Assembly: GCA_027005635.1 (NCBI GenBank)
Contig: JALTLI010000139.1
Coordinates: forward strand, 1 to 43,701
Source of the DNA: Alphaproteobacteria bacterium
GTDB lineage: Bacteria; Pseudomonadota; Alphaproteobacteria; UBA2136; JALTLI01
Direction of reading: 5' to 3'
DNA length: 43,701 nt
Both the position numbers and the translations under genes were made by a program. Below, piece by piece: positions 5,650 through 38,634 of this stretch. The first letter of the stretch is position 1; each line of letters begins with the position of its first letter. Below the pieces are notes generated by a model. It ran no database searches. It saw nothing but the letters and a program-made list of their open reading frames with translations, and had not been told where the DNA came from.

Positions 5650-5998
5650 TTATAGTTACCCCTTCAATTATGCCAAAGGTGGTTATGGCATCAAAGTTAA
5701 TAGTTAATTTTCTTGTATCACCATTAAATGATGATTGAAATCTGGTTAGTTTTTCTATATCAGGTGTATTTAAAATTTCTGATTTTAAAATAGCTTCTAC
5801 TTTTGCAATATCAAAAGGTTTTTTCAATATATTCTGAAAATAAGGAACACCTGCTTCAATATCTAAAAACCATTCACCCAAAAAGAATTTTAAACGGGTT
5901 CTTAAATGTTGTACTGTCTGTGCCCCTTTAGTAACAGTAGAAAATTTACCATCTTTTATAAATATATCATTATTGCTGTTTAATGCTTTACTTATCAT
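5642..5998 (-). CDS. Small baseplate wedge protein (gpW/gp25 position)
   Basis: 118 aa, immediately after the spike gene and overlapping the J-like gene by 8 nt. Carries a 'LGEWFLD...G.PYF' motif. Confidence 0.5.
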   Translation of the reverse strand: MISKALNSNNDIFIKDGKFSTVTKGAQTVQHLRTRLKFFLGEWFLDIEAGVPYFQNILKKPFDIAKVEAILKSEILNTPDIEKLTRFQSSFNGDTRKLTINFDAITTFGIIEGVTINV

Positions 5999-20103: not shown

Positions 20104-21627
20104 TTAAATAGCTCCCAAATACATATTATTGGCTTCTACAAGCATATCCTGAATGGCATCCATCATAGGATCTATCTGATCATCATTTTTGTGTGTCATT
20201 AATGGTGTAAACTTTCTACATTCACTTAAAAAATCACTTAACCATTCAGCATCTTCAGGCAACCACACATTACCTGATGCTATCTGTGGTACTACATCCA
20301 TAGCCCGGACTACTTTACCTTTACTTCTATCAATCCCTTCAATCGGTATATTGTGTTTTCTTGTAATAGTCTGAACAAGCCCTGATCCTGAACTCTTTTT
20401 TTCCACTAATGCTTTTTGAACACCGATTAAATTATTTTTGTGCTTATATTTATGCTTATTCCAAAATGCTACAAAAGCTGTTTCTAATTCAGGTGTTTCC
20501 AATTTTTCTTTAAATAAATCTATTAATAAAATGCCTTTGGTCGGTGAATACGCCCAACATTGGAAACAAGTGTAATCGTTATGCTCCCCTTTTTCTTGTG
20601 CTGTATCACAGTAAATACGCTTAAATAAAATATCTTTGGGTAGTGCATTAGAATTATAATATTTCCAAAATTCATCTTTAAATATTGATCCACCTTTAGG
20701 GCTTGGCTTCTGTTCATACTGTGAAGCAAAAGTATAAGGATCTGCTTTTTCCATTGCCCTTATATCTTCTTCCGTGTGTTTCATTTTCCATAACGCGCCG
20801 GGTGGTAGGTTATATTCTATCGGTATTCCATGTGTATATTCATGTGGATACCAGTGTTTGACAGGTGCATCAGGAATATCTACAGGTAGCATTAAATGAT
20901 GCCATTTTTCACCTGTACCCCCGGTTAATAAAAATCCACTGGGATCATCTTCATGAACCCTTTGCATAATTAAAATAATAGGGGTATCTGATTCAAGGGC
21001 GAGCCGGGACTTAAATGTATTCATGAATCGGTTATTAATACGGTTCCTGATTGGCTCCTTATAAGCATCATCTGGTTTTATAGGATCATCTATTATCAAT
21101 GCCCCAGTAAACTTGTCCTGTTCCATTCTACCAGCCCTGAAGCCTGTCACCTGACCCCCGGCTGAAGTAGCATATAATCCACCTCCCTGTTCTGTGTACC
21201 ATTTCTTTTTAGAGCTAACATCGTTCCTTATAGCCATAGGAAACAGTTCTTGATATTCGGGGCTTTTAACTGTGTCCCTAACAAGTGTACTGTTCCACAA
21301 GGCTAAATCATCAGAATATGACAGGTGCATAAATAAAGCCTGTGGATTGATTGCTAAACCACGAGCAATAAAATTTACCACTGCTTCTTCTGTTTTTGTA
21401 TAACCGGGTGGGATGTTAATTATTAAACGCTTAATTTTTAAATCCAAAACTTTTTGTAAAGTATCAGCTACTATATGGTGGTGTGCATTAACCATAAATT
21501 TACGAGCTTCACGCTTCTTAAAAAAATAACGTGAAAAATGCAGCCCGGATCTGGGAAGCAAGTATTTAAGCATCCTTTTATCTTGAATTGTGTTTATATC
21601 AATACTCATGTTTAAACACTCTTTCAA
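20104..21627 (-). CDS. terL: Terminase large subunit
   Basis: 507 aa. It has an ATPase core with a Walker-B-like 'ALIIDDPIKPDDA' and a C-terminal nuclease-like part ('IYCDTAQ', 'DQIDPMMDAI'). An alternative start at 21609 is possible. Confidence 0.85.
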   Translation of the reverse strand: MKECLNMSIDINTIQDKRMLKYLLPRSGLHFSRYFFKKREARKFMVNAHHHIVADTLQKVLDLKIKRLIINIPPGYTKTEEAVVNFIARGLAINPQALFMHLSYSDDLALWNSTLVRDTVKSPEYQELFPMAIRNDVSSKKKWYTEQGGGLYATSAGGQVTGFRAGRMEQDKFTGALIIDDPIKPDDAYKEPIRNRINNRFMNTFKSRLALESDTPIILIMQRVHEDDPSGFLLTGGTGEKWHHLMLPVDIPDAPVKHWYPHEYTHGIPIEYNLPPGALWKMKHTEEDIRAMEKADPYTFASQYEQKPSPKGGSIFKDEFWKYYNSNALPKDILFKRIYCDTAQEKGEHNDYTCFQCWAYSPTKGILLIDLFKEKLETPELETAFVAFWNKHKYKHKNNLIGVQKALVEKKSSGSGLVQTITRKHNIPIEGIDRSKGKVVRAMDVVPQIASGNVWLPEDAEWLSDFLSECRKFTPLMTHKNDDQIDPMMDAIQDMLVEANNMYLGAI

Positions 21628-22012
21628 AACGCTTTATTTCAGCTCGGCTTAATTCAGTGATTTCCCCACTTGCTGACTTATCAGTTATCTCTACCGATTT
21701 TTTCTTATTGTGTTGGTATTCTAAAAGTGTTTTGGCTGCATCCCTGCTTACCGCTCTTTCCACTGGTAAAAATCTATGTTCATTTTTAATCAGTTCTACC
21801 AGTTCATCCCACTCAAAAGTATCGGGGGGTTCATCCCCATTAATATTTTCATGATTCAAAATCCACTGATAGACAAGGCTATGCCCCCGCAAATCTTCAC
21901 CATTAGCGAAGCCCAACAGTAAAGTTAGTGGATCTATAAAACCATATTCATCTGCAACTTTTTGTAGTTGTTCATCAAGTTGCATAAAATTAAATTGTTG
22001 AGCCTTGCCCAT
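21599..22012 (-). CDS. Terminase small subunit (putative)
   Basis: 137 aa, first gene of the late arm, overlapping the terL start. Assigned by position only. Confidence 0.5.
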   Translation of the reverse strand: MGKAQQFNFMQLDEQLQKVADEYGFIDPLTLLLGFANGEDLRGHSLVYQWILNHENINGDEPPDTFEWDELVELIKNEHRFLPVERAVSRDAAKTLLEYQHNKKKSVEITDKSASGEITELSRAEIKRFERVFKHEY

Positions 22013-22094
22013 TCAGGATAGCCTTTTATTATCAAGTACATATATGGTAGCAGGGAATAACTGTATATACCACATATAGGGGGGTTCAGGTGCT

Positions 22095-23878: not shown

Positions 23879-26239
23879 ATGAAGAAAGTAATAATTTCAT
23901 TAGGTCAATCTGTTTATAGAAACAGAATTAAGCAGCAGGAAATATCTGTAAAGGATTTATTTAGGAAATTATCTTTACCTGATATTAGGACTGAAAAAGA
24001 TGGTGCTTATTTTATATTTGCATCATTCACGAAAAATATTAGAAATGCTGTTAATGTAGATAAATATTATGGGGCTACTATTGATCTGGATAATACCCCA
24101 CTCGCTATATCTGAAGTACAGGAACTATTTAAAAAATATTTATACTGCATCCACACTACCCACAGCCACAAAGCCCCCGGAAAAGGTGTTAGATACCGGC
24201 TAGTATTGCCCTATCGTACCCCGCAAAGCCCTGAACGCCATGTAAACACATTATTACATATCATTAATATGTTAGGTATGGATAATGTAGATCTGTCCAG
24301 TAAGGCTTTATCCCGGCCTATGTATCTTCCGGCCTGTCCTAAAAAACGTGAAAAATATTTTAAATTTGTAGCTAATGAAAAAGGGCGGCCATTTAATCCT
24401 GACAGAATAAAACTTGATCCATCATTACAGTGGGAACTTGAGCAAAATAATTTACCGGGGCAGGTTGAACCTTTAGATATAAATAAGGAAATTTCCGAAG
24501 GGGAAAGAAATGAATCAATAGCCCGGCTTGTCGGTAAATTTATCCATAATGGAATGGATTTAGGTTTAATAGAACAATCTGCTATTGTGTGGAATGCTAC
24601 TAACTGTGTGCCCCCATTATCTGATAAAGATGTAAAAACCATTGTAAAATCGGTTTATAAAGCCCATAAAAGAAACAGCAAAGATACAGGGTGGGGATAT
24701 GATGAATTAGTAAGGCGGGTTAAAGAGAGCAAAGAACCTAAGCGGGATTATGACTTACTTATTAATCTTATATCTGGTTCACATGAAAAATTAAAGCAAT
24801 CACAGATTGAATTATTAATCCGGTTATTAAGACAAAAAACGGAAATCCCATTAAACTTAATCCGAAGTGAACTTTCAGCAGCAATAGCAGAAAAGAAAGG
24901 CATTAAGGAAGAAGAAGAAGAACTAAACACACAGAAATCTATTAAAGATCTTAAAAAGGAATTTACTGATTGGGTATATTTACGCAAAGACGATAAAATG
25001 TACAACTCAGTAAATGGGCTTGTATATAAAGTGGAAGGTTTTAATAGAATGCATAGCTCAATGATTGAAAAAGGGGCAATGCATTCTTTATTATTAAAAT
25101 TTAAGTCAGTTAAACAGGCTGATATGCTTCAGTTCAACCCATCAGAAGAACGGGTATTTAAAACAGATCACATTATATATGCTAATACCTATGTCCCACC
25201 TGAATTATTTCCAATGCCGGGAAATGTACGGCCAATGCTAAAACATTTTAAATATCTGATACCGGATGAAAGAGAAAGAAATATTATTTTAGATTTTATG
25301 GCTTTTATCATCCAGAAGCCCGGTGAAAAAATTAGATGGATGCCTGTTATAAAAGGAAGTAAAGGTATTGGTAAATCTATTATTGCTGAATTGATTTTAG
25401 CCCCATTAATCGGCATGAGTAATTTTAAACCTGTAGATTCAAAAGCAGTAAGACGGGATTTTAATAGCTGGCAGTTAGATGCACAGATAGTATGTTTTCA
25501 TGAATTAAAAATAGGTGAGACACGAAAAGAGAAAAAAGCCCTTACTGATTCACTGAAATCATTTATTGCCGATCCTACTATTCAGGCACACAGAAAAGGG
25601 CTTGATGAATATACCGTATTAAATAAGTCCAATGTTCTAGGCTTTACCAATCACGAAGATGCAATAATGATAACCCCTGATGAAAGGCGTTTCTGTATGA
25701 TTCGTTCTGAAGTTATGCCCAAATCAATTAATTATTATAACCGGCTAACAGACTGGTTAAAATCTCATAAAGAAGAAATGCTTTATTATTTCACTGAACG
25801 GGATATAAGCTGCTTCAATTATTCTACAGCACCCGAAACCGAATACACTAAAGAGATTAAAGATAGTAGCCAAATGTGGCCTACATCTATTCTTGTGGAT
25901 GCCTTGGGGGATGATCAGCACCCATTTAATACTGTAGGAGCTATGACTTGGGAAGGCATTGTAAACTTTATCCGATCTGAATCAGTAGGTAAGGATATGA
26001 TGGTAGCGGATAACCTGATTAAAGCCACATCATCACAAGGATATTTATTAATCAATGCTTTGCGGGAAATGGGCTTTAGGAAATTCAACGTAGGGAACAC
26101 TGATAGGGTGAGAATTAATAATAAACTCCATAGGGTATGGGTAGCTCCAAGGTCTGTTAGAGAGTTCAGTAAGTTATCATCTAATACAGTTGCTAAACTG
26201 CTGAAGCATGAAAAACAAATTTATGATTTTGATGAATAA
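23879..26239 (+). CDS. DNA primase / SF3 (D5/P4-alpha-like) replicative helicase
   Basis: 786 aa. N-terminal primase-like region ('IHTTHSHKAPGKGVRYRLVLPY'), a PriCT-like helix ('GERNESIARLVGKFIHNG...PPLSDKDVKTIVKSV'), Walker A 'GSKGIGKS' and Walker B-like 'IVCFHEL'. Confidence 0.8.
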   Translation: MKKVIISLGQSVYRNRIKQQEISVKDLFRKLSLPDIRTEKDGAYFIFASFTKNIRNAVNVDKYYGATIDLDNTPLAISEVQELFKKYLYCIHTTHSHKAPGKGVRYRLVLPYRTPQSPERHVNTLLHIINMLGMDNVDLSSKALSRPMYLPACPKKREKYFKFVANEKGRPFNPDRIKLDPSLQWELEQNNLPGQVEPLDINKEISEGERNESIARLVGKFIHNGMDLGLIEQSAIVWNATNCVPPLSDKDVKTIVKSVYKAHKRNSKDTGWGYDELVRRVKESKEPKRDYDLLINLISGSHEKLKQSQIELLIRLLRQKTEIPLNLIRSELSAAIAEKKGIKEEEEELNTQKSIKDLKKEFTDWVYLRKDDKMYNSVNGLVYKVEGFNRMHSSMIEKGAMHSLLLKFKSVKQADMLQFNPSEERVFKTDHIIYANTYVPPELFPMPGNVRPMLKHFKYLIPDERERNIILDFMAFIIQKPGEKIRWMPVIKGSKGIGKSIIAELILAPLIGMSNFKPVDSKAVRRDFNSWQLDAQIVCFHELKIGETRKEKKALTDSLKSFIADPTIQAHRKGLDEYTVLNKSNVLGFTNHEDAIMITPDERRFCMIRSEVMPKSINYYNRLTDWLKSHKEEMLYYFTERDISCFNYSTAPETEYTKEIKDSSQMWPTSILVDALGDDQHPFNTVGAMTWEGIVNFIRSESVGKDMMVADNLIKATSSQGYLLINALREMGFRKFNVGNTDRVRINNKLHRVWVAPRSVREFSKLSSNTVAKLLKHEKQIYDFDE

Positions 26240-26244
26240 ATAAA

Positions 26245-26382
26245 ATGATTGATTGTAAATATTTAAAAAATCGGCTGTGTACACATCAAAAAGTAAGACA
26301 TTTTAAAAGTGAACACTTTAAAAGGTGTCTACCTAATATATACCCCCATGTTAAATGTTTATATAAAGAGAAAAAGAAATGA
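26245..26382 (+). CDS. Unannotated 45-aa Cys/His-rich (zinc-finger-like) ORF, ATGA-coupled to the HsdM-like gene
   Basis: MIDCKYLKNRLCTHQKVRHFKSEHFKRCLPNIYPHVKCLYKEKKK. Its TGA (26380-82) overlaps the ATG at 26379. Confidence 0.4.
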   Translation: MIDCKYLKNRLCTHQKVRHFKSEHFKRCLPNIYPHVKCLYKEKKK

Positions 26383-27083
26383 TTAACCATAAAAAAGAAT
26401 TTATAAAACTGTTTAACAGTACAGCCCATAATCTTAACAGGTTTGAAGTGTTTTCTGATTTTGTAAAAATGTCAGCTATTGCCATATATAACGCCATTGC
26501 AAAAAATGAAGAACTGGAAAAAGAATATTTAGAAATTGTAGGGAAATATAAAAAGGAAGATGTGGATAATATAGTTAAATTATTTAGTCATGTGGTGATG
26601 GGGCTAGAAGCTGAATTTTGTGATTTTTTAGGTGATGTATTCATGGAATCTGAATTAGGTTCTAATAGAATGGGGCAATTTTTTACCCCCTATCATTTAT
26701 CTAAAATATGCTCGGATCTTACTTATTCTGATGATATAAAAAAATCAAAAGACAAAGAGTTCATAACTGTCCATGAGCCTGCCTGTGGTGCTGGTGGAAT
26801 GGTTATTGCTTTTGCTAATACAATGCTTGACAATGATATAAACTATCAGCAGAAACTATTTGTGAGCTGTATAGATAAGGATTATGTGGCGGCTTATATG
26901 TGCTTCATTCAATTATCACTTTTAAATATCCCGGCTGAAGTGATTATAGGAAATGCCCTGAACATGGATATTCAAAAAGTATTCAGAACCCCAGCTTATT
27001 ATTTAGGTAACTGGGAATATAAATTAAATGCCCCACAGAAACAAAAGATAAAAACAAAGATTATTTTAGAATATAACCCTTGA
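26379..27083 (+). CDS. HsdM/N6-adenine-methyltransferase-like SAM-binding protein lacking the catalytic (N/D/S)PP(Y/F/W) motif
   Basis: Motif X 'GQFFTPYHL', motif I 'EPACGAGGM', 'CIDKD' and 'IIGNAL' are present. The protein ends ~35 aa later and has no PP dipeptide anywhere. Confidence 0.6.
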   Translation: MINHKKEFIKLFNSTAHNLNRFEVFSDFVKMSAIAIYNAIAKNEELEKEYLEIVGKYKKEDVDNIVKLFSHVVMGLEAEFCDFLGDVFMESELGSNRMGQFFTPYHLSKICSDLTYSDDIKKSKDKEFITVHEPACGAGGMVIAFANTMLDNDINYQQKLFVSCIDKDYVAAYMCFIQLSLLNIPAEVIIGNALNMDIQKVFRTPAYYLGNWEYKLNAPQKQKIKTKIILEYNP

Positions 27084-27108
27084 CATATCTTAGCCCCTAA
27101 TATATTAT
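27080..27108 (+). promoter_or_regulatory. Cassette promoter P1 (TTGACA-N17-TATTAT), spacer core CTTAGCCCCTAAT
   Basis: The stop codon of the upstream ORF (27081-83) lies inside the -35. No ORF occurs before P2. Confidence 0.6.
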
Positions 27109-27130
27109 ACATACATGGGCTGCGGGGTTA

Positions 27131-27153
27131 TCCGATAATCCACCCCTGCATGA
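27131..27153. repeat. GC-rich 23-mer TCCGATAATCCACCCCTGCATGA, inverted partner at 29591-29613
   Basis: The reverse complement of 29591-29613 is tcggataatccgcccctgcatga, matching at 21/23 positions. Confidence 0.85.
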
Positions 27154-27198
27154 CTATAAACCATATAAAATTAATTTTAATTATTTTAATAAAATCCC

Positions 27199-27227
27199 TT
27201 GACTTATGTTAGCCCCTAATATATACT
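27199..27227 (+). promoter_or_regulatory. Cassette promoter P2 (TTGACT-N17-TATACT)
   Basis: ttgacttatgttagcccctaatatatact. The ATG of the next ORF is 39 nt downstream. Confidence 0.75.
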
Positions 27228-27272
27228 TGTATCCAAGTTAAACATAAATACATAGGAACAAGGCTATGAAAA
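27199..27272 (+). repeat. 74-nt perfect direct repeat (promoter + leader + ATGAAAA), copy 1
   Basis: Identical to 29912-29985. Confidence 0.95.
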
Positions 27273-27475
27273 CAGAAACAGTAAAAGCAAGTAATATAAA
27301 CCACGGTGACACAATTATCATTAACGGTAAAGAGTTTACTGTAAACGGTGAATATATAAAAAACGGTTTTTTCGGTACTACCATTCATGGCCATAATATC
27401 AAGGGCAGTGTAGAACGTGTTTTATTCCCCAAATGGTATAAAGGAAAAATTGTAAAATATGTTCCCCAAATTTAA
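27266..27475 (+). CDS. Hypothetical cassette protein (69 aa)
   Basis: ORF track. Has its own promoter, P2. Confidence 0.6.
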   Translation: MKTETVKASNINHGDTIIINGKEFTVNGEYIKNGFFGTTIHGHNIKGSVERVLFPKWYKGKIVKYVPQI

Positions 27476-27494
27476 AATAAATTAAGATTAGGGG

Positions 27495-27523
27495 TTGACA
27501 TAAGTTAGCCCCTAACATATACT
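27495..27523 (+). promoter_or_regulatory. Cassette promoter P3 (TTGACA-N17-TATACT), core GTTAGCCCCTAAC
   Basis: Preceded by TTAGGGG (27488-94), which is complementary to CCCCTAA (27509-15) in the spacer. Confidence 0.75.
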
Positions 27524-27558
27524 TATCACACCTTAAACAAACACAGAGAGAAAAGGTA

Positions 27559-27936
27559 ATGATTAATTTAACATATTTCATTTCAAAGCAACAAACAAAA
27601 GTGATTAAATCACTGATTAAAGGTGAAGAAGGCAAGTTTTTTGCTGATAAACTGATTCAATTACAGCACATTATTGAAACCATGCCAAAATCCTATGAAC
27701 AGGATGGTAAAGGGGATGAAGCTGTAGCATATCTCCACTACTTCAAAGGTGGGTATGATTTTTATATTACTGAAAGGGATATTGAAAAAGAACAACATCA
27801 GGCTTTTGGTTTAGTTTCAGGCCATGAAATAGAAATGGGCTATATTTCAATAGTAGAATTATTGGCTAATAATGTAGAAATAGATCTGCATTTTGAACCT
27901 ACTACCTTAAAGGAAATAAGAAAAAATTTAAAATAA
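27559..27936 (+). CDS. DUF2958-like protein (family common on conjugative plasmids/ICEs)
   Basis: 'YEQDGKGDEAVAYLHYFKGGYDFYITERD...AFGLVSGHEIEMGYISIVELL...VEIDLHFEPTTLKEI' matches my recollection of the DUF2958 signature. Confidence 0.5.
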   Translation: MINLTYFISKQQTKVIKSLIKGEEGKFFADKLIQLQHIIETMPKSYEQDGKGDEAVAYLHYFKGGYDFYITERDIEKEQHQAFGLVSGHEIEMGYISIVELLANNVEIDLHFEPTTLKEIRKNLK

Positions 27937-27950
27937 ATTAAAATTAGGGG

Positions 27951-27979
27951 TTGACTTATGTTAGCCCCTAATATATACT
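27951..27979 (+). promoter_or_regulatory. Cassette promoter P4 (TTGACT-N17-TATACT)
   Basis: The same upstream tttaaaataaattaaRattagggg as P3. TTAGGGG at 27944-50 is complementary to 27965-71. Confidence 0.75.
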
Positions 27980-28017
27980 TATCTCAAGTTAAATAAATAC
28001 AGAGAGAGATTAAAGCC

Positions 28018-28239
28018 ATGACTAAACAAATCAAAGTAATTATGAAAGACACACTGAACAATGACAAAGAAATTACTCGTGACATTGATATTAGTAATTT
28101 CTATATAAATGGTGGTTCTTCATGGGTGGTTTCTTCTGATGTTGAACGTCAAAGAAAGATGCTTTTAGATTGGATTGAAGAGCGTGCTAATGAACAACAT
28201 AATACACTTTTAGAATTAAAAGCATGGTATATTTTTTAA
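28018..28239 (+). CDS. Hypothetical cassette protein (73 aa)
   Basis: ORF track. Has its own promoter, P4. Confidence 0.6.
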   Translation: MTKQIKVIMKDTLNNDKEITRDIDISNFYINGGSSWVVSSDVERQRKMLLDWIEERANEQHNTLLELKAWYIF

Positions 28240-28257
28240 AATCAATTTTAAAAAGCC

Positions 28258-28286
28258 CTTGACATAAGTTAGGGGCTAACATATAC
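28258..28286 (+). promoter_or_regulatory. Cassette promoter P5 (TTGACA-N17-TATACT) with the 13-mer core inverted (GTTAGGGGCTAAC)
   Basis: Colinear with P3 for ~60 nt except for the flipped core. Upstream AGCCC (28253-57) is complementary to GGGCT (28272-76). Confidence 0.75.
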
Positions 28287-28323
28287 TGATCACACCTTAA
28301 ACAAAAAGAGAGAGAAAAATATC

Positions 28324-29181
28324 ATGACTTATTTCCGTGAAATGACACATGCCCACAATGTTGAATTAACTAATGAAGCAATGCTTCAAAACGCCCCTTC
28401 TGTATTCGCTGAACAACCATTTAATGAAGTATCTAGCAAGTATGGCTTTGTTCCTACTATTAACGTGATTGAAGGCTTACGGGCTGAAGGCTGGCTTCCT
28501 GTGGATGCTACTCAAAAGAATGTAAGGAATAAGGATAAAACGGATTTTACTAAACATCTGATCCGCTTCAGACGTTTAAATGATGATATTAAAGTAGGTG
28601 ATTCTGCTGTAGAACTGCTGCTAACAAACAGCCATGATAGAAGTTCAGCCTTTGTTCTTCATGCTGGTATCTTCCGTATGGCCTGTGCTAATGGCATTGT
28701 AATCGCTGATAGCACATTTAATAAGGTATCTGTACGCCATAATCAAAACGCCCTTGAAGATGTTATAGAAGGCTCTTATCAGGTACTTGAAGAAGTTCCC
28801 TTAATTACCAATGAAGTAGAAGCTATGCAAGAGGTGATCTTAAACCGGGAAGAACAGAAAATTTTTGCCGGGGCTGCTTTGGATTACATGCTACCTGAAC
28901 CCAAAGAAGGGGAAGCTAAAATAGTTACTTCCAAGGATGCATTAATAGGCCAAATCCTACACCCTAAGCGTTCTGCTGATACTGGCAGTGATTTATGGTC
29001 TACCTATAATGTAGTGCAAGAAAAAGCCTTACGGGGTGGCCTGATCAGTCATAAAATGGATGCTAAAGGCCGATATAGAAGAAACACCACACGGGCTGTA
29101 AAGAGCATTGATAAAAACGTAAAGCTGAACAAGGCTTTATGGGAAATGGCTGTGAAAATGAAGGAATTAAAAGCAGCTTAA
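28324..29181 (+). CDS. DUF932-like protein (phage/plasmid/ICE family of unknown function)
   Basis: 'ELLLTNSHDRSSAFVLHAGIFRMACANGIV' matches the DUF932 core (NSHDGS...G.FR..C.NG). Confidence 0.65.
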   Translation: MTYFREMTHAHNVELTNEAMLQNAPSVFAEQPFNEVSSKYGFVPTINVIEGLRAEGWLPVDATQKNVRNKDKTDFTKHLIRFRRLNDDIKVGDSAVELLLTNSHDRSSAFVLHAGIFRMACANGIVIADSTFNKVSVRHNQNALEDVIEGSYQVLEEVPLITNEVEAMQEVILNREEQKIFAGAALDYMLPEPKEGEAKIVTSKDALIGQILHPKRSADTGSDLWSTYNVVQEKALRGGLISHKMDAKGRYRRNTTRAVKSIDKNVKLNKALWEMAVKMKELKAA

Positions 29182-29189
29182 TTTTAACG

Positions 29190-29210
29190 GGGCAAGGATG
29201 CCCTTAATTT
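29190..29210 (+). terminator. Short hairpin terminator candidate
   Basis: GGGCA-agga-TGCCC followed by ttaattt. Confidence 0.35.
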
Positions 29211-29223
29211 AGGAATATAAAAA

Positions 29224-29508
29224 ATGAATATTTTTGGTAAAATAAATAATGAGAAAGCAAGAAAACAACTTAATTTACCACATGACTATGAAATATTTAT
29301 AATGGCTACGGAAATTGATTATTTAAAAGATGATTTTAGCTATAAAGTACATGATTTGTATAGTGAAATAGGATATTTATCTAGTGATGATGTAAATTCA
29401 ATATTTAAAGAAATAAACATAAGCATAAAACTACCACAAAACTATATATTAGTTGGCATGATTAATAAAAATAATAATTCTGAAGTTTATGGGATAATAG
29501 AAGTATGA
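29224..29508 (+). CDS. Hypothetical protein (94 aa, very AT-rich)
   Basis: ORF track. Confidence 0.55.
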   Translation: MNIFGKINNEKARKQLNLPHDYEIFIMATEIDYLKDDFSYKVHDLYSEIGYLSSDDVNSIFKEINISIKLPQNYILVGMINKNNNSEVYGIIEV

Positions 29509-29588
29509 GTATTGAACAACTTACCCCTGAAGAACTGGTTTTATTAATATTGGCATTTATTGTAGGGGCAATAATCGCTAGAATTTAA
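29505..29588 (+). CDS. Unannotated 27-aa hydrophobic peptide (ATGA-coupled)
   Basis: MSIEQLTPEELVLLILAFIVGAIIARI. Its ATG overlaps the TGA of the upstream ORF. Confidence 0.3.
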   Translation: MSIEQLTPEELVLLILAFIVGAIIARI

Positions 29589-29590
29589 TA

Positions 29591-29613
29591 TCATGCAGGG
29601 GCGGATTATCCGA
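29591..29613. repeat. Inverted partner of the 27131-27153 GC-rich 23-mer
   Basis: tcatgcaggggcggattatccga. Confidence 0.85.
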
Positions 29614-29629
29614 CTATCCCGGCTGATGT

Positions 29630-29658
29630 AAGTATTATATGTTAGCCCCTAATATAAT
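29630..29658 (+). promoter_or_regulatory. Degenerate cassette promoter P6 (core GTTAGCCCCTAA plus TATAAT, no TTGAC -35)
   Basis: aagtattatatgttagcccctaatataat. The ATG of 29691 is 33 nt downstream. Confidence 0.4.
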
Positions 29659-29690
29659 GCAAGTAATATTTTGAATAAAAGGTAAATAAA

Positions 29691-29915
29691 ATGACTGAAA
29701 TTATAAACAACACCCGCCACCCTTTAACATTTCATCATGAAAATAAAGAAGGTGAAATAGAAATAACTATCCTTCCTTTTGATTCTGGTGAAATACCAGA
29801 TAATCTATGGAAGAAATTCAAGAAAAATAAAACAGTAAAAGAAAAATTGGAAAATAAAAGTTTAGTAGTAAGAGAAAAACAAAATTTTTTTAAAAAATTG
29901 TTTAAATTTAGTTGA
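29691..29915 (+). CDS. Early paralog (74 aa) of the capsid-adjacent gene 14673..14987
   Basis: See the alignment given for 14673..14987. Its stop codon lies inside the -35 of P7. Confidence 0.6.
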   Translation: MTEIINNTRHPLTFHHENKEGEIEITILPFDSGEIPDNLWKKFKKNKTVKEKLENKSLVVREKQNFFKKLFKFS

Positions 29916-29940
29916 CTTATGTTAGCCCCTAATATATACT
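29912..29940 (+). promoter_or_regulatory. Cassette promoter P7 (TTGACT-N17-TATACT)
   Basis: Identical to P2. Confidence 0.75.
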
Positions 29941-29985
29941 TGTATCCAAGTTAAACATAAATACATAGGAACAAGGCTATGAAAA
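29912..29985 (+). repeat. 74-nt perfect direct repeat, copy 2
   Basis: Identical to 27199-27272. Confidence 0.95.
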
Positions 29986-30134
29986 ATATTGAAATAACAG
30001 CAGCACAAAAACAGCTTTTAGATAGCATATTTGAAGTTAATGCTAAAAGGATTGATCAGCTTATAGTCAGATCTTTTAGATCTACCGGAAAAGAGCCACA
30101 TGTTTACGGAACTGAATACCAATATAAGGGGTAA
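29979..30134 (+). CDS. Unannotated 51-aa ORF driven by P7
   Basis: MKNIEITAAQKQLLDSIFEVNAKRIDQLIVRSFRSTGKEPHVYGTEYQYKG. It has the same leader, RBS and start as 27266. Below the track cut-off. Confidence 0.55.
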   Translation: MKNIEITAAQKQLLDSIFEVNAKRIDQLIVRSFRSTGKEPHVYGTEYQYKG

Positions 30135-30138
30135 TGAA

Positions 30139-30360
30139 ATGTACAGCAAAAACAGAAAAATGAAAAAAGTTGAAGTGGATGATCTTGTAGTAGTAAATGA
30201 TCTTCCTGATACCACTGTTTATATGGTTTGTTCAGTAGAGAATGGGCAGGCTGAATTAGAATATGAATCAGGCTATAAAAAAATTAATGCAGGTAAAATG
30301 CCAGTAGAATTATTATTAAAACCCACGAAAGAACAGCTTAAAAATAGTGGGCTAAATTAA
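30139..30360 (+). CDS. Hypothetical protein (73 aa; start moved from 30100)
   Basis: The internal ATG at 30139 follows AAGGGG and the stop of the 51-aa ORF. The track start would overlap that ORF by 35 nt. Confidence 0.55.
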   Translation: MYSKNRKMKKVEVDDLVVVNDLPDTTVYMVCSVENGQAELEYESGYKKINAGKMPVELLLKPTKEQLKNSGLN

Positions 30361-30396
30361 CTGGGAATGATCCCATAATATAAAAGGTGATAAATT

Positions 30397-30591
30397 ATGT
30401 TTAAAATTCAGTGTAGTAAAAAATCAACAGGTGGTAAGGCTTTTGTATCCAATCATCCTACCGGATCTGAATCAGTTCAGTTTACAGATAATGAAAGTCA
30501 AGCCTACATATTTAGTGATATGGCACAATGTAAAAATATCCGTGATGATATTCTTCAATATGCTGATAATGTAACAATTCTGAAAATCTAG
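30397..30591 (+). CDS. Hypothetical protein (64 aa)
   Basis: ORF track. RBS aaaaggtga. Confidence 0.5.
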   Translation: MFKIQCSKKSTGGKAFVSNHPTGSESVQFTDNESQAYIFSDMAQCKNIRDDILQYADNVTILKI

Positions 30592-30807: not shown

Positions 30808-31527
30808 ATGAATACAGAAAAAGTAGATTGGATTAAATTATCAAATGATCCAGAAATAAGAAAATTAGCAAAGGAATTATGTGAAAAGCATGGATTCAAT
30901 GCTGATAGTTTAGTTTTTGGCTCCACACCCTATCCTGATTCAGATCAAAAAGTAAAAGATGTGGATCAATATTACTACAGGTGGCGTGAATATGTAGTGG
31001 ATGCTGTGACCATTTCACAAAAAAATAGAAATAAATGTGAACATGGACTACCTATAGATGATCACTGTGCATTATGTGAAAGGGGTTTTGATATGGCTAT
31101 GGATGGGGAATGTAAACATGGAACACCAGAAAATGTATTTTGTAACCAGTGTGAATCCGAATATCAGGAACACAAAACAGAATCAGATCCATCAGGCAAA
31201 GCACAGCATGAACCCGGTGCTAAATTAGATGCTGGAAAGATAAGGCCGGGCTTAGTGCTTGGGGGCTTTGCAAGGGCATTATGGGCAGTCTGTGAGGTAG
31301 GTACTAAAGGTGCTGCCAAATATTCAGATAACGGCTGGATGGAAGTGGAAACAGGAAAAGAAAGATATACTGATGCAGGTTTACGCCACTTTCTAAAGTC
31401 TGCTATGGGTGAAGATATAGATCCAGATTTTGACCTGTTACACATGGCACATGAAGCATGGAACAGCCTAGCAAAGCTGGAATTGAAATTAAGAGAAATT
31501 GAAGCTAAGAATGCTGATCAGCAATAG
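30808..31527 (+). CDS. Fusion protein: N-domain + two CxHG-x8/9-CxxCE zinc knuckles + DUF5664-like (dNTP-pyrophosphohydrolase-associated) C-domain
   Basis: 'KCEHGLPIDDHCALCERG' and 'ECKHGTPENVFCNQCESE' are tandem. The C-terminal 'DAGKIRPGLV...GAAKYSDNGW...AGLRHFLKSAMGEDIDPDFDLLHMAHEAWN' fits the DUF5664 pattern as I recall it. Confidence 0.5.
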   Translation: MNTEKVDWIKLSNDPEIRKLAKELCEKHGFNADSLVFGSTPYPDSDQKVKDVDQYYYRWREYVVDAVTISQKNRNKCEHGLPIDDHCALCERGFDMAMDGECKHGTPENVFCNQCESEYQEHKTESDPSGKAQHEPGAKLDAGKIRPGLVLGGFARALWAVCEVGTKGAAKYSDNGWMEVETGKERYTDAGLRHFLKSAMGEDIDPDFDLLHMAHEAWNSLAKLELKLREIEAKNADQQ

Positions 31528-37640: not shown

Positions 37641-37786
37641 ATAAACGAAAACAGAATGAATATTATACTTCAAATGAAGAAATAGAAGAATTGATTAAAA
37701 AATGTAAAAATCCTGTTACAAAAAATTCTTATAAACAAATTTTAATTAATAGAAAAAAGAGGTTGAAAAAATGCGACAATATTTAG
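37637..37786 (+). CDS. Possible 49-aa basic ORF bridging pol and thyA
   Basis: MNKRKQNEYYTSNEEIEELIKKCKNPVTKNSYKQILINRKKRLKKCDNI. ATGA overlap with the pol stop, and it overlaps thyA by 16 nt. Confidence 0.3.
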   Translation: MNKRKQNEYYTSNEEIEELIKKCKNPVTKNSYKQILINRKKRLKKCDNI

Positions 37787-38634
37787 ATATGTTAAATGAA
37801 GTAATGCTATGGGGTGATAGGGTTCCCGGTAGAAATGGGGAAACCATTGAACTTTTTGGATTACAAAATGAATATGATTTAGCTGAAGGCTTTCCATTGA
37901 TCACCACTAAAAAAATGGCTGTTAAATCTATCATAGGTGAATTACTAGCATTCATCCGTGGCTACCATCATGTACAGGATTTTCAGTCTTTAGGCTGTAA
38001 TGTATGGAATGCTAACGCAAATTCAAGCTATTGGCTTAATTCTGAATTTATGAAAAGCATGGTTGAAAATTCCCCTGAAATTGCTGATGGACTTCTAGGC
38101 CGGATATATGGGGTACAATGGCGAAACTGGACTAATCCACTTGGGGAAAATACAGATCAATTAGTAGAATTAATTGAAGGCATTAAAAATGATCCGTATG
38201 GTAGAAGGCATGTAGTATTAGCTTATAATCCGGGTGAATTAAAATACATGTGTTTACCACCATGCCACATGTTTTTTCAGGTAAACATAACACCATCAGG
38301 AAAATTAAATTTAAAAGTATATCAACGTAGTGCTGATATGTTTTTAGGGGTTCCTTATAATATTGCTTCCTATGCTTTTTTGATGTTAATCCTGTGCCAT
38401 CAAACAGGTTACACCCCCGGTAAATTTATCCATTCTTTTGGTTCAACACATATTTACTCTAATCACTTTGATCAGGTAAATGAACATCTAGGCCGAATAC
38501 CACATAAATTACCTTCTGTTAAAATCAGTTCTGAACTGAATTCTAACTGTGCCCTAGAAGATTATCAGCCAGAACATTTTATTATTGAAGGCTATAATCA
38601 CGAACCGGCTATTAAAGCTGAAATGAATGTTTAA
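37771..38634 (+). CDS. thyA: Thymidylate synthase (ThyA type)
   Basis: 'FPLITTKK', 'RRHVVLAYNP', catalytic 'LPPCHMFFQ', 'YQRSADMFLGVPYNIASYA', 'GSTHIYSNH'. Aligns along its full length to E. coli ThyA. Confidence 0.9.
   Translation: MRQYLDMLNEVMLWGDRVPGRNGETIELFGLQNEYDLAEGFPLITTKKMAVKSIIGELLAFIRGYHHVQDFQSLGCNVWNANANSSYWLNSEFMKSMVENSPEIADGLLGRIYGVQWRNWTNPLGENTDQLVELIEGIKNDPYGRRHVVLAYNPGELKYMCLPPCHMFFQVNITPSGKLNLKVYQRSADMFLGVPYNIASYAFLMLILCHQTGYTPGKFIHSFGSTHIYSNHFDQVNEHLGRIPHKLPSVKISSELNSNCALEDYQPEHFIIEGYNHEPAIKAEMNV

What the first reader, a model, noticed from the sequence alone, without database searches (positions are those of the whole stretch)
26245..27083. Zinc-finger-like mini-ORF translationally coupled to an HsdM-like protein that has lost its catalytic motif: candidate anti-restriction decoy or SAM binder
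Seen: the 234-aa product keeps methyltransferase motif X (GQFFTPYHL), motif I (EPACGAGGM), 'CIDKD' and 'IIGNAL', in the order seen in type I HsdM and gamma-class N6-adenine enzymes. It terminates ~35 aa later, with no (N/D/S)PP(Y/F/W) tetrad and no target-recognition or C-terminal region. A 45-aa Cys/His-rich ORF overlaps its start (ATGA). Known: motif IV is essential for methyl transfer, and phages and plasmids deploy methylase-related or SAM-targeting proteins early against restriction and BREX-type defences. Inference: it is a non-catalytic HsdM mimic that could sequester HsdS/HsdR or SAM, or a pseudogene truncated when the promoter cassettes inserted. Its stop codon sits inside P1.
Basis: partly seen in the sequence, partly recalled or inferred. 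Interest (0 to 1): 0.65.

Follow-up and report, generated by a model that had tools for sequence, protein, structure and literature searches.

The report
Conserved half-methyltransferase, likely anti-restriction gene
This phage gene encodes only the cofactor-binding half of a type I restriction-system methylase; it belongs to a large uncharacterised family found in the early-entry regions of phages and resistance plasmids, where it probably helps them evade host restriction, while the small "zinc-finger" gene in front of it is probably not real.

Summary
The sequence observations hold. A 234-aa ORF (26379-27083) carries methyltransferase motifs X, I, II and III, has no motif IV, overlaps a 45-aa ORF by ATGA, and its stop lies in a promoter -35 hexamer.

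The truncation is not a local accident:
- All 265 relatives retrieved are short or carry the same half-domain, and none of the first 120 has an NPPY-type motif.
- A profile finds 2027 clusters at E<=1e-30.
- 2191 plasmids carry the gene, 1511 of them conjugative.

The structure model is confident (pLDDT 90.5). It shows an HsdM-like helical N-domain and three Rossmann strands, then a hairpin strand and C-terminal helices.

Context points to anti-restriction:
- In F-type plasmids the gene lies in the leading region, between PsiB/PsiA and an antirestriction gene beside oriT.
- About 650-aa proteins fuse the domain to anti-restriction factor ArdC.
- The nearest relative of this phage lacks the gene.

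In 42% of relatives, but not in this copy, the protein ends in a QL[S/D]LF sliding-clamp-binding motif.

The mini-ORF has no homologue and no zinc-binding pattern, and it lies on a decayed promoter cassette.

Best reading: a non-catalytic, SAM-binding mimic of HsdM. The mechanism is untested.

The parts
26379..27083 (+). Gene for a 234-aa 'half-methyltransferase': HsdM-like helical N-domain, AdoMet-binding region (motifs X, I, II, III), extra hairpin strand and C-terminal helices. No motifs IV-VIII and no target-recognition or C-terminal region.
   Evidence: ORF. Pfam N6_Mtase covers profile 22-128/311. Full-length match to phrog_5696 at E 2.5e-79. AF2 pLDDT 90.5, pTM 0.88. Foldseek best hits are gamma-class N6-adenine methyltransferases and HsdM.
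26673..26699 (+). Motif X (GQFFTPYHL, residues 99-107). Q100, F102 and P104 are invariant in the family.
   Evidence: aligned to motif X of M.BseCI and EcoR124 HsdM.
26775..26801 (+). Motif I (EPACGAGGM, residues 133-141). E133, P134, G137 and G139 are conserved in at least 90% of members.
26868..26882 (+). Motif II (CIDKD, residues 164-168), at the end of strand beta-2. D166 is invariant.
26943..26960 (+). Motif III (IIGNAL, residues 189-194), strand beta-3. G191 is invariant and N192 conserved in at least 90%.
26988..27002 (+). Family-specific TPAYY segment. T204, P205 and W212 are conserved in at least 90%. It follows a hairpin strand (197-203) and is not a structural equivalent of motif IV.
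26245..26382 (+). 45-aa Cys/His/Lys-rich ORF. Probably not a functional gene; at most a short coupling reading frame left at the conserved start site after the primase stop.
   Evidence: No family hit. No counterpart upstream of homologues in 7 loci. No homologue and not called as a gene on its own contig. Absent from relative L021. Open frame of 40 or more codons in 44 of 5000 shuffles. AF2 pLDDT 61.
26295..26378 (+). Decayed copy of the repeated promoter + 5'UTR cassette. It keeps CCTAATATATAC, GTTAAA and the AAAGAGAAAAAG ribosome-binding site. The -35 has become CTTTAA and the -10 TATACC.
   Evidence: Alignment A3; exact CCTAATATATA at 26332; not listed as a promoter.
27062..27108 (+). First strong promoter cassette (TTGACA-17-TATTAT). 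Its AT-rich upstream part supplies the last 7 codons and the stop of the 234-aa ORF.
23879..26239 (+). Upstream primase/helicase gene (PriCT_1 + DUF5906). It ends 5 nt before the mini-ORF ATG and probably supplies the transcript that carries the half-methyltransferase gene (inference).
   Evidence: same junction in relative L021.
27199..29940 (+). Array of five more near-identical sigma-70-type cassettes (-35 at 27199, 27495, 27951, 28259, 29912). Each precedes a small early gene, including DUF932 at 28324-29181.

Best explanation
The 234-aa ORF is an intact member of a very large family carried by phages, conjugative plasmids and integrative elements. The family consists of the N-terminal helical domain and the AdoMet-binding region (motifs X, I, II, III) of a type I HsdM-like adenine methyltransferase. 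The catalytic region (motifs IV-VIII) and the C-terminal region are missing.

Shown here:
- The short form is ancestral to the family and conserved.
- It is predicted to fold confidently.
- The residues that contact AdoMet in real enzymes are the most conserved ones.
- The gene travels with anti-restriction and establishment genes, and in some proteins is fused to ArdC.

Inferred:
- It binds SAM or SAH but transfers no methyl group.
- It acts early after DNA entry as a mimic of the HsdM subunit.
- It interferes with SAM-dependent, methyltransferase-containing defence complexes (type I R-M, possibly BREX-like). It could do this by capturing HsdR or HsdS, or by joining non-productive assemblies.
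- In the 42% of relatives with a C-terminal QL[S/D]LF tail, the module would be tethered to the sliding clamp on newly synthesised invader DNA. This copy lacks that tail.

The 45-aa upstream ORF is most likely a chance open frame over a decayed promoter cassette, not a zinc finger.
For: - **Family and length:** 631 hits at E<=1e-5, the best 120 being 209-348 aa, and none of these 120 has [NDS]PP[YFW]. A profile search gives 2027 clusters at E<=1e-30; of the best 150, 144 are 185-358 aa and six are longer fusion proteins (642-704 aa). The match to phrog_5696 is full-length.
- **Fold:** pLDDT 90.5 and pTM 0.88. The model has helices 4-90, strands 129-134, 160-166 and 186-192, a hairpin strand 197-203, then helices.
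- **Nearest structures and profiles:** gamma-class N6-adenine methyltransferases and HsdM and type I methyltransferase profiles.
- **Conservation:** invariant or at least 90% conserved Q100, F102, P104, E133, P134, G137, G139, D166, G191 and N192.
- **Fusions:** P0132, P0133 and P0135 carry ArdC-N (two of them also the zincin peptidase domain) with this domain at the C-terminus. They correspond to phrog_23459. ArdC is required for plasmid R388 to overcome recipient hsdRMS restriction (PMC7213743).
- **Plasmid context:** 2191 plasmids, 1511 conjugative. The order ParB-PsiB-PsiA...gene-antirestriction-SLT-traM occurs in two F-type plasmids, with ArdA also upstream in pNDM4-191773. Lar and a C5-methyltransferase are neighbours in pPALA38. 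A SprT-like gene is adjacent in Dulem virus 37. RadC, SSB and DUF4942 are nearby on the closest plasmid-like contigs.
- **Accessory status:** the gene is missing from the nearest relative of this phage.
- **No partner:** no gene in the window carries a motif IV; the only match in any frame of 60 or more residues falls in an ORF antisense to a gene.
- **Clamp motif:** present in 109 of 259 short members, against 0.4 expected from shuffled tails.
Against: - No experiment or publication on this family was found, so function rests on context and domain fusion.
- SAM binding is inferred from motif conservation only. I had no model coordinates to inspect the pocket, and part of the cofactor pocket of real enzymes comes from the missing motifs IV-V.
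- Nothing shows contact with HsdR, HsdS or HsdM.
- The N-terminal 80 residues have no significant sequence match to HsdM_N. There is only a structural overlay at TM about 0.5 and PADLOC alignments that reach residue 24.
- Neighbourhoods vary, and some (ParA/ParB, replication genes) would equally suit a replication or maintenance role.
- The clamp motif has no obvious place in a simple decoy model, and this copy lacks it.
Confidence: 0.42

Rival explanations
1. Pseudo-enzyme partner of a methyltransferase. The inactive half-domain would bind an active methyltransferase, either the host M2S1 complex or an element-encoded orphan enzyme. It would stimulate or redirect methylation of the incoming DNA. 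This is restriction alleviation in the manner of lambda Ral or Lar, and is architecturally analogous to DNMT3L or METTL14.
For: - P0206 fuses an active small methyltransferase (Methyltransf_23, with ANPPF) to this domain.
- DUF4942 or C5-methyltransferase genes lie nearby in L008 and pPALA38, and a separate 'DNA methylase' gene lies in the same leading region.
- Lar is a neighbour in pPALA38 and lies about 3.6 kb downstream in Dulem virus 37.
- A clamp tail would place such a complex on nascent DNA.
Against: - No methyltransferase gene was found in this window.
- No partner gene is conserved across the loci examined.
- No interaction data exist.
Confidence: 0.2
2. Replisome-directed factor. 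The family would use the sliding clamp to reach replication forks or primed ssDNA, and would promote replication or establishment of the element, or disturb host replication, independently of restriction.
For: - A C-terminal QL[S/D]LF motif, or QMTLPL in P0206, occurs in 42% of members. It is far above chance and often forms the very C-terminus. It matches the published clamp-binding consensus (PMC4549789).
- The gene often sits in replication modules: after the primase here, near DnaD and the helicase loader in phage Taranis, and near ParA/ParB in plasmids.
Against: - The window copy and the enterobacterial plasmid copies lack the motif.
- This phage encodes its own family A polymerase and primase-helicase.
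- This reading does not explain the strict conservation of the AdoMet-binding motifs.
Confidence: 0.12
3. SAM binder or sensor that lowers free SAM, or captures a SAM-derived signal, so depriving SAM-dependent defences of their cofactor.
For: Motifs X, I, II and III are the most conserved positions. Phages are known to attack SAM (T3 SAM lyase; my own knowledge).
Against: - Cellular SAM is abundant (order of 0.1 mM in E. coli; my own knowledge), so stoichiometric sequestration by a protein is implausible.
- The invariant D166, which binds the ribose hydroxyls in real enzymes, argues against a 3'-substituted ligand such as SAM-AMP.
- A clamp tail and an ArdC fusion point to DNA-associated action rather than a cytosolic sponge.
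Confidence: 0.08
4. An active but unconventional methyltransferase, for example a homo-oligomer that completes the active site, or one that uses the conserved T204-P205 segment.
For: T204 and P205 are conserved in at least 90% of members, 12 residues after motif III, roughly where motif IV would lie in the linear sequence. Databases name the proteins 'N-6 DNA methylase'.
Against: - No [NDS]PP[YFW] motif in the 120 members tested.
- Strand 197-203 is joined to beta-3 by a 4-residue turn, so it is a hairpin and not a canonical beta-4.
- Strands beta-5 to beta-7 and any target-recognition domain are absent.
- The database names derive from partial Pfam matches.
Confidence: 0.07
5. A decaying pseudogene, cut short when the promoter cassettes inserted.
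For: The last 7 codons and the stop are cassette sequence. The closest homologues are about 25 residues longer and carry a linker and clamp motif that this copy lacks.
Against: - The missing catalytic half is missing in the whole family.
- The conserved domain is complete and keeps all invariant residues, and the model is confident.
- Many natural members of 209-240 aa also lack the tail.
- There are no frameshifts or internal stops.
Confidence: 0.03

Closest known systems
HsdM, the methyltransferase subunit of type I restriction-modification systems (Pfam PF02384; e.g. EcoR124 HsdM 7BST, StySJI M 2OKC, 3LKD, PacII M 7VS4)
   Same: - The helical N-domain is followed by the D-x-LG segment, motif X (GQFFTP), motif I (EPACGxGG), motif II (acidic residue after beta-2) and motif III (GN-L) in the same order.
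- The best PADLOC profiles are type I methyltransferases.
- The whole-chain structural overlay gives TM about 0.5.
   Different: - It ends after beta-3 plus a hairpin strand.
- There is no NPPF/Y motif, no motifs V-VIII and no beta-4 to beta-7.
- There are no C-terminal helices that bind HsdS.
- No adjacent hsdS or hsdR gene.
- It is carried by mobile elements in anti-defence neighbourhoods.
ArdC (plasmid R388 anti-restriction factor; ArdC-N ssDNA-binding domain plus zincin metallopeptidase)
   Same: It occupies the same genomic niche (leading or early regions). In about 650-aa proteins the ArdC module and this domain share one polypeptide. ArdC counteracts a type I hsdRMS system in the recipient (PMC7213743).
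   Different: The window protein has no ArdC-N or peptidase domain. It corresponds only to the C-terminal appendage of the fusion proteins.
Catalytically dead methyltransferase paralogues that act as partners (DNMT3L, METTL14)
   Same: A methyltransferase-fold protein without catalytic residues, kept under selection.
   Different: Those proteins keep a complete fold and have lost or altered cofactor binding. Here the fold is halved and the cofactor-binding motifs are the best conserved part. There is no evolutionary relationship (comparison from my own knowledge).
Ocr and ArdA (DNA-mimic inhibitors of type I R-M and BREX)
   Same: Early-expressed proteins of phages and plasmids, often in the same leading regions (ArdA in L004).
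   Different: Those are strongly acidic DNA mimics. This protein has pI 5.6 with 31 acidic and 26 basic residues and a methyltransferase fold.
C-terminal beta-clamp-binding motifs of transposases, Hda, polymerases and TrfA
   Same: In 42% of family members the consensus is Q-[LM]-[SD]-L-F at or near the C-terminus, after a low-complexity linker (PMC4549789).
   Different: This motif has not, as far as I could find, been reported on a methyltransferase-like or anti-restriction protein. It is absent from the window's copy.

Membership tests
Gamma-class N6-adenine DNA methyltransferase / HsdM (PF02384) | AdoMet-binding region: motifs X, I, II and III in that order | tested here: met
   GQFFTPYHL 99-107, EPACGAGGM 133-141, CIDKD 164-168, IIGNAL 189-194; aligned to M.BseCI and EcoR124 HsdM; Pfam E 4.8e-10.
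Gamma-class N6-adenine DNA methyltransferase / HsdM (PF02384) | Catalytic motif IV, (N/D/S)PP(Y/F/W), on a loop after a parallel strand beta-4 | tested here: not met
   No such tetrad in this protein or in 120 homologues. The strand after beta-3 is a hairpin.
Gamma-class N6-adenine DNA methyltransferase / HsdM (PF02384) | Motifs V-VIII (strands beta-5 to beta-7) and a target-recognition or HsdS-binding C-terminal region | tested here: not met
   The Pfam match stops at profile position 128 of 311. The model has four strands only. Foldseek TM normalised to the targets is 0.14-0.34.
Gamma-class N6-adenine DNA methyltransferase / HsdM (PF02384) | Methyl transfer from SAM to adenine N6 | not testable with these tools
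   Needs biochemistry or methylome sequencing.
Type I R-M system (operon membership) | Adjacent hsdS and hsdR genes | tested here: not met
   The neighbours are a primase and small early genes. No hsdS or hsdR appears in any related locus examined.
Short mobile-element 'half-methyltransferase' family (phrog_5696; RefSeq 'N-6 DNA methylase' of about 210-350 aa) | End-to-end match, comparable length, and the family's invariant residues | tested here: met
   phrog_5696 at E 2.5e-79, residues 3-227 against profile 18-246 of 250. 41-57% identity to 119 homologues. All invariant columns are present.
Short mobile-element 'half-methyltransferase' family (phrog_5696; RefSeq 'N-6 DNA methylase' of about 210-350 aa) | C-terminal linker plus clamp-binding-like Q-[LM]-x-L-F (a facultative feature) | tested here: not met
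   The window protein ends ...KIILEYNP. The motif is present in 109 of 259 relatives.
ArdC anti-restriction factor | ArdC-N ssDNA-binding domain and zincin metallopeptidase | tested here: not met
   No such Pfam hit in the window protein. These domains occur only in the fused homologues P0132, P0133 and P0135.
Zinc finger / zinc ribbon (for the 45-aa ORF) | Paired metal ligands (CxxC, CxxH or HxxxH knuckles) and membership of a recognised family | tested here: not met
   The Cys and His spacing has no pairs. No Pfam or PHROG hit. No homologue. AF2 pLDDT 61, helical.
DNA-mimic anti-restriction proteins (Ocr, ArdA) | Strongly acidic surface that mimics DNA | tested here: not met
   pI 5.6, with 31 acidic and 26 basic residues, and a methyltransferase fold.

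The most novel reading that the evidence does not exclude
The family is a previously unrecognised class of anti-restriction effector. It is an HsdM-derived, SAM-binding pseudo-methyltransferase that disarms type I (or BREX-like) complexes. In many elements a C-terminal QL[S/D]LF tail tethers it to the beta sliding clamp on freshly synthesised invader DNA. It is carried near oriT by about 3% of sequenced plasmids, including many Klebsiella, Enterobacter and Acinetobacter plasmids, and is currently annotated as an active DNA methylase.
Probability: 0.25. Interest if true: 0.8.

Novelty: new variant of a known kind. Interest (0 to 1): 0.6.

Why it matters
If the reading is right, a gene present on more than 2000 sequenced plasmids and many phages is not the orphan methylase that databases call it. 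Most of those plasmids are conjugative, and many come from clinical Enterobacterales, Acinetobacter and Pseudomonas. The gene would instead be a non-catalytic establishment factor.

That has three consequences:
- It would add a new mechanism, subunit mimicry with or without clamp tethering, to the known anti-restriction repertoire.
- It would explain what the C-terminal appendage of some ArdC-type proteins is for.
- It would correct a systematic annotation error (GO: DNA methylation) that distorts methylome and R-M surveys.

The family is small, soluble-looking and easy to test in standard restriction and conjugation assays.

Tried and rejected
- **Split methyltransferase.** I looked for the missing half in the window. 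The ten largest remaining plus-strand ORFs have no methyltransferase domain. The only [NDS]PP[YFWH] in any frame of 60 or more residues lies in an ORF antisense to a gene. No partner gene is conserved in related loci. Rejected.
- **Full-length ancestor among relatives.** None appears among 120 + 150 listed homologues. The long ones are fusions to other domains.
- **Close relatives of the phage, to test conservation of the mini-ORF.**
  - Megablast against GenBank phages found nothing.
  - The IMG/VR contig L020 ends inside the primase gene.
  - An exact cassette search in IMG/VR found nothing.
  - A degenerate cassette search in metagenomes gave L021, which lacks both ORFs.
- **Small RNA from promoter P27080.** There are no Rfam or tRNA hits, and the fold z-score is 0.10. 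Rejected.
- **Literature.** Six keyword searches for the family and one accession search found no paper on it. YfjB/HerB of F plasmids is a ParB-like protein and is unrelated.
- **Weak Pfam EcoR124_C (HsdR C-terminal domain) hits in the N-terminal helices.** These occur in 10 of 77 members (best E 0.0033, below the cut-off). I treated them as compositional and did not use them.
- **Defence-system membership.** PADLOC gave only partial methyltransferase matches.
Full report
**1. What is in the sequence**

The two ORFs exist as described. The 45-aa ORF runs from 26245 to 26382 and the 234-aa ORF from 26379 to 27083, both on the + strand, overlapping by ATGA. In the 234-aa product:
- GQFFTPYHL is at residues 99-107.
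- EPACGAGGM is at 133-141.
- CIDKD is at 164-168.
- IIGNAL is at 189-194.
- There is no (N/D/S)PP(Y/F/W) tetrad.

The stop TGA (27081-27083) is the central triplet of TTGACA at 27080-27085. That hexamer is the -35 of a near-consensus sigma-70-type promoter, TTGACA-17-TATTAT.

The resemblance to methyltransferases is significant but partial:
- Pfam N6_Mtase matches at E 4.8e-10 and covers only profile positions 22-128 of 311.
- A family profile aligns with solved structures only over motifs X, I and II of M.BseCI, EcoR124 HsdM, PacII M and StySJI M.
- The best matches in the PADLOC defence library are type I methyltransferase profiles, with alignments that reach back to residue 24.

**2. The truncation is a family trait**

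The protein matches phrog_5696, a 250-position profile of unknown function, end to end at E 2.5e-79. It also matches the C-terminal third of phrog_23459, a 649-position profile.
- A search of 5.8 billion proteins gave 631 hits at E<=1e-5. The best 120 are all 209-348 aa, and none has a motif IV.
- A profile search of 1.84 billion cluster representatives gave 6680 hits at E<=1e-3, 4391 at E<=1e-10 and 2027 at E<=1e-30. Of the best 150, 144 are 185-358 aa and six are longer fusion proteins.
- tblastn found the gene in 13 GenBank phage records, from Vibrio, Faecalibacterium and Flavobacterium phages and faecal viromes.
- It also found the gene in 2191 PLSDB plasmids, 1511 of them predicted conjugative. 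The counts by genus are Klebsiella 709, Enterobacter 272, Acinetobacter 259 and Pseudomonas 159.

A smaller version of it may be true. Alignment of the cassettes (A3) shows that the last 7 codons, ATT ATT TTA GAA TAT AAC CCT, and the stop TGA are the AT-rich upstream part of the 27080 cassette. The closest homologues run about 25 residues longer. The cassette may have replaced a C-terminal tail. Many natural members of 209-240 aa also lack that tail.

**3. Structure and conservation**

With a 77-sequence alignment, AlphaFold2 gives pLDDT 90.5 and pTM 0.88. The model has these elements:
- Five helices span residues 4-90.
- The motif X helix spans 105-125.
- Strands lie at 129-134, 160-166 and 186-192.
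- A further strand at 197-203 is joined by only four residues, so it must be a hairpin partner of beta-3 and not a canonical parallel beta-4.
- Helices at 205-209 and 212-231 follow.

Foldseek against the PDB returns gamma-class adenine methyltransferases first: lmo1582 (2F8L), PacII M (7VS4/7VRU), HsdM (3LKD, 3UFB, 3KHK) and M.BseCI. The query-normalised TM-score is 0.28-0.52 and the target-normalised score 0.14-0.34. That is what half of the fold would give.

The family's invariant or at least 90% conserved positions are Q100, F102 and P104 (motif X), E133, P134, G137 and G139 (motif I), D166 (motif II), G191 and N192 (motif III), and the family-specific T204, P205 and W212. In characterised enzymes of this class, those four motifs form the AdoMet-binding region and motifs IV-VIII form the catalytic region. 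This is established knowledge of methyltransferase motif architecture and was not tested here.

My inference is that the family still binds SAM or SAH and cannot catalyse transfer in the conventional way.

**4. Genomic company**

In two F-type plasmids, K. pneumoniae pNDM4-191773 and E. asburiae pKAM576_2, the gene sits in the leading region. The order is ParB-like, PsiB, PsiA, several small ORFs, this gene, 'antirestriction protein', SLT transglycosylase, then traM. ArdA also lies upstream in pNDM4-191773. From my own knowledge of F-type plasmids, oriT lies between SLT and traM. That places the gene in the leading region that Samuel et al. found enriched in anti-defence genes and 'orphan methyltransferases' (PMC11541004).

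Other contexts:
- P. aeruginosa pPALA38: a Lar restriction-alleviation gene, a C5-methyltransferase and a PAPS-reductase-family gene.
- A. baumannii pDETAB7a: a PAPS-reductase-family gene, DUF2786 and ParA/ParB.
- The closest homologues (53-57% identity): plasmid-like contigs with RadC, SSB, DUF4942, ParA/ParB-KorB and YoeB/Phd.
- Dulem virus 37: directly after a SprT-like peptidase gene, with a Lar gene about 3.6 kb downstream.
- Window: after the primase-helicase, and before an array of small promoter-driven early genes and a DUF932 gene.

The most informative result is a domain fusion. P0132, P0133 and P0135 (about 650 aa) combine the ArdC N-terminal ssDNA-binding domain with this half-domain at the C-terminus. 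Two of them also match the zincin metallopeptidase domain, and two match a CbtA-like segment. ArdC is required for R388 to overcome the recipient's hsdRMS system (PMC7213743). Another fusion, P0206, joins an active small methyltransferase carrying ANPPF to the half-domain.

The gene is also accessory in this phage lineage. The nearest relative I could find is metagenome contig L021 (44,796 bp, about 76% nucleotide identity across the primase and the homologue of window 20104-22079). After the primase it has a completely different string of small ORFs and no half-methyltransferase.

**5. An unexpected family feature**

Many relatives carry a low-complexity linker that ends in QLSLFD, QMSLFD, QLDLFDF, QVDLFDF and similar sequences.
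- Among 259 short members, 109 have Q-[LMIVF]-x-[LMIF]-F in the last 18 residues.
- Shuffled tails give a mean of 0.4 and a maximum of 3 in 200 shuffles.
- Only 4 matches occur anywhere else in the proteins.
- Position 3 of the motif is S or D in 78 of the 109.
- F is the final residue in 33.
- P0206 ends in QMTLPL, which resembles the hexapeptide variant of the motif (the hexapeptide form is recalled from memory).
- Phage-borne homologues end in GQLSLF and LQLNLF.

This matches the bacterial beta sliding-clamp-binding consensus QLxLF, whose full form is QLSLF (PMC4549789). The window's protein lacks it. The motif suggests that the family acts on or near DNA that carries clamps, that is, newly synthesised DNA. 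That argues against a purely cytosolic cofactor sponge.

**6. The mini-ORF**

The 45-aa ORF has no Pfam or PHROG match. Other evidence against it:
- There is no counterpart upstream of the homologous gene in seven other loci.
- It has no homologue in the 5.8-billion-protein collection, where it was not even called on its own contig.
- It is absent from relative L021.
- Its Cys and His residues (C4, C12, H14, H19, H24, C28, H35, C38) form no CxxC- or HxxH-type pairs.
- The single-sequence model is poor: pLDDT 61, pTM 0.29, short helices. This is weak evidence on its own.

The DNA beneath it aligns with the repeated promoter + 5'UTR cassette. It shares CCTAATATATAC, GTTAAA and the AAAGAGAAAA ribosome-binding stretch before the ATG. 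The -35 has become CTTTAA and the -10 has become TATACC. The last 18 residues of the ORF are therefore cassette-encoded. All six intact cassettes have stops in every frame.

An open frame of 40 or more codons arises in 44 of 5000 dinucleotide shuffles of this gap. That is unusual for one gap but not across the many intergenic gaps in the window.

The ATG lies at the conserved junction after the primase stop (TAA-ATAAA-ATG). In L021 a real gene starts at that position behind an AGGAG. The window has no Shine-Dalgarno sequence there. The 234-aa gene keeps the cassette-type ribosome-binding site and does not need coupling.

I conclude that the mini-ORF is probably not a gene. At most, ribosomes leaving the primase gene may pass through it.

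**7. Mechanism**

*Shown:* a conserved, foldable, HsdM-like AdoMet-binding module without a catalytic region. It is mobile between phages and plasmids, embedded in anti-restriction neighbourhoods, fused to ArdC in some lineages, and clamp-tagged in many.

*Inferred (confidence about 0.4):* it is a non-catalytic mimic of the HsdM subunit that interferes with type I (possibly BREX-like) complexes early after entry. It could titrate HsdR or HsdS, or form dead-end assemblies. In ArdC fusions it could direct the peptidase to the restriction complex.

*Rivals:*
- A pseudo-enzyme partner that boosts protective methylation (0.2). It is supported by the fusion to an active methyltransferase and by Lar and methyltransferase neighbours.
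- A clamp-directed replication factor (0.12).
- A SAM sponge or sensor (0.08). This is disfavoured because SAM is abundant and the protein looks DNA-directed.
- An unconventional active methyltransferase (0.07).
- A pseudogene (0.03).

**8. Comparison and novelty**

The protein fails the membership test for a functional gamma-class methyltransferase or HsdM. Motif IV, motifs V-VIII and the C-terminal region are absent, and there is no hsdS or hsdR nearby. It is a full member of the catalogued but uncharacterised short family (phrog_5696; RefSeq 'N-6 DNA methylase').

I found no publication that describes this family, its truncated architecture, its ArdC fusion or its clamp motif. The libraries searched are incomplete, so this is absence of evidence only.

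I rate it a new variant of a known kind: a methyltransferase-fold protein put to anti-restriction use. Interest is 0.6. The window's gene is one ordinary member, but the family-level reading is surprising, clinically widespread and directly testable.

Noticed in passing
Homologues P0002-P0265; loci L014, L018, L019 (C-termini of the genes at about 4001-4860): 109 of 259 short family members end in a beta sliding-clamp-binding-like motif, Q-[LM]-[SD]-L-F, after a low-complexity linker. Shuffled tails give 0.4. P0206 ends in the hexapeptide-like form QMTLPL. The window's copy lacks the motif.
   Followed up: partly
window 27080-27108, 27199-27227, 27495-27523, 27951-27979, 28259-28287, 29912-29940 (+ strand); decayed copy at 26295-26378: There are six near-identical units of about 90 nt. 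Each has an AT-rich upstream stretch, TTGAC(A/T)-17-TATACT/TATTAT, a shared 5'UTR (GTTAAAC...AGAGAGAAA) and an ATG, and each drives a small early gene. This is a duplicated promoter + leader cassette array. The 27080 copy has no ORF before the next cassette.
   Followed up: partly
window 30808-31527 and 37771-38634 (+ strand): One gene has a MazZ-type dATP/dGTP diphosphohydrolase N-terminal domain (PF18909, E 2.6e-23). Another is a thymidylate-synthase-family gene (E 1.4e-89). They lie beside the family A polymerase, the DUF2800 nuclease and the Enc34-type SSB. This hints that the phage may modify its nucleotide pool or its DNA bases.
   Followed up: no
L021 7015-11900 compared with window 26240-30480: The nearest related phage contig shares the primase and the homologue of window 20104-22079 at about 76% nucleotide identity. 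The whole block of early genes after the primase is replaced by unrelated small ORFs, including a peptide-deformylase-like 152-aa ORF (my reading of the sequence, not tested). This is a hypervariable accessory region.
   Followed up: partly
L013, L015, L016: ORF at about 5030-5734 (221 aa) and the half-methyltransferase ORF at 3971-4729: In these IMG/VR phages the half-methyltransferase ends ...NMPLFDM. A neighbouring 221-aa protein ends ...GMPLFDDLPIF. Two adjacent early proteins thus share a similar C-terminal peptide, which may dock on the same host hub (clamp or SSB-interaction site).
   Followed up: no
RefSeq annotations of plasmid homologues (e.g. L004 8869-9699, L012 5869-6699, L005 6992-7768): The family is uniformly named 'N-6 DNA methylase', and several of the plasmid records examined also carry the GO term 'DNA methylation', on the strength of a partial Pfam match. 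The catalytic region is absent, so this annotation is probably wrong for more than 2000 plasmids.
   Followed up: partly
window 26379-26560 (residues 4-60) and 9 other family members: There are weak, sub-threshold Pfam matches of the N-terminal helices to EcoR124_C, the C-terminal helical domain of the type I HsdR subunit. They occur in 10 of 77 members, with a best E-value of 0.0033. They are probably compositional, but curious given the proposed target.
   Followed up: no
window 27559-27936, 28018-28239, 28324-29181 (+ strand): The genes driven by the downstream cassettes include a phrog_5203 protein (125 aa) and a DUF932 protein (285 aa). DUF932, to my recollection, is typical of plasmid and ICE establishment regions. 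The early region as a whole therefore resembles a plasmid leading region.
   Followed up: partly
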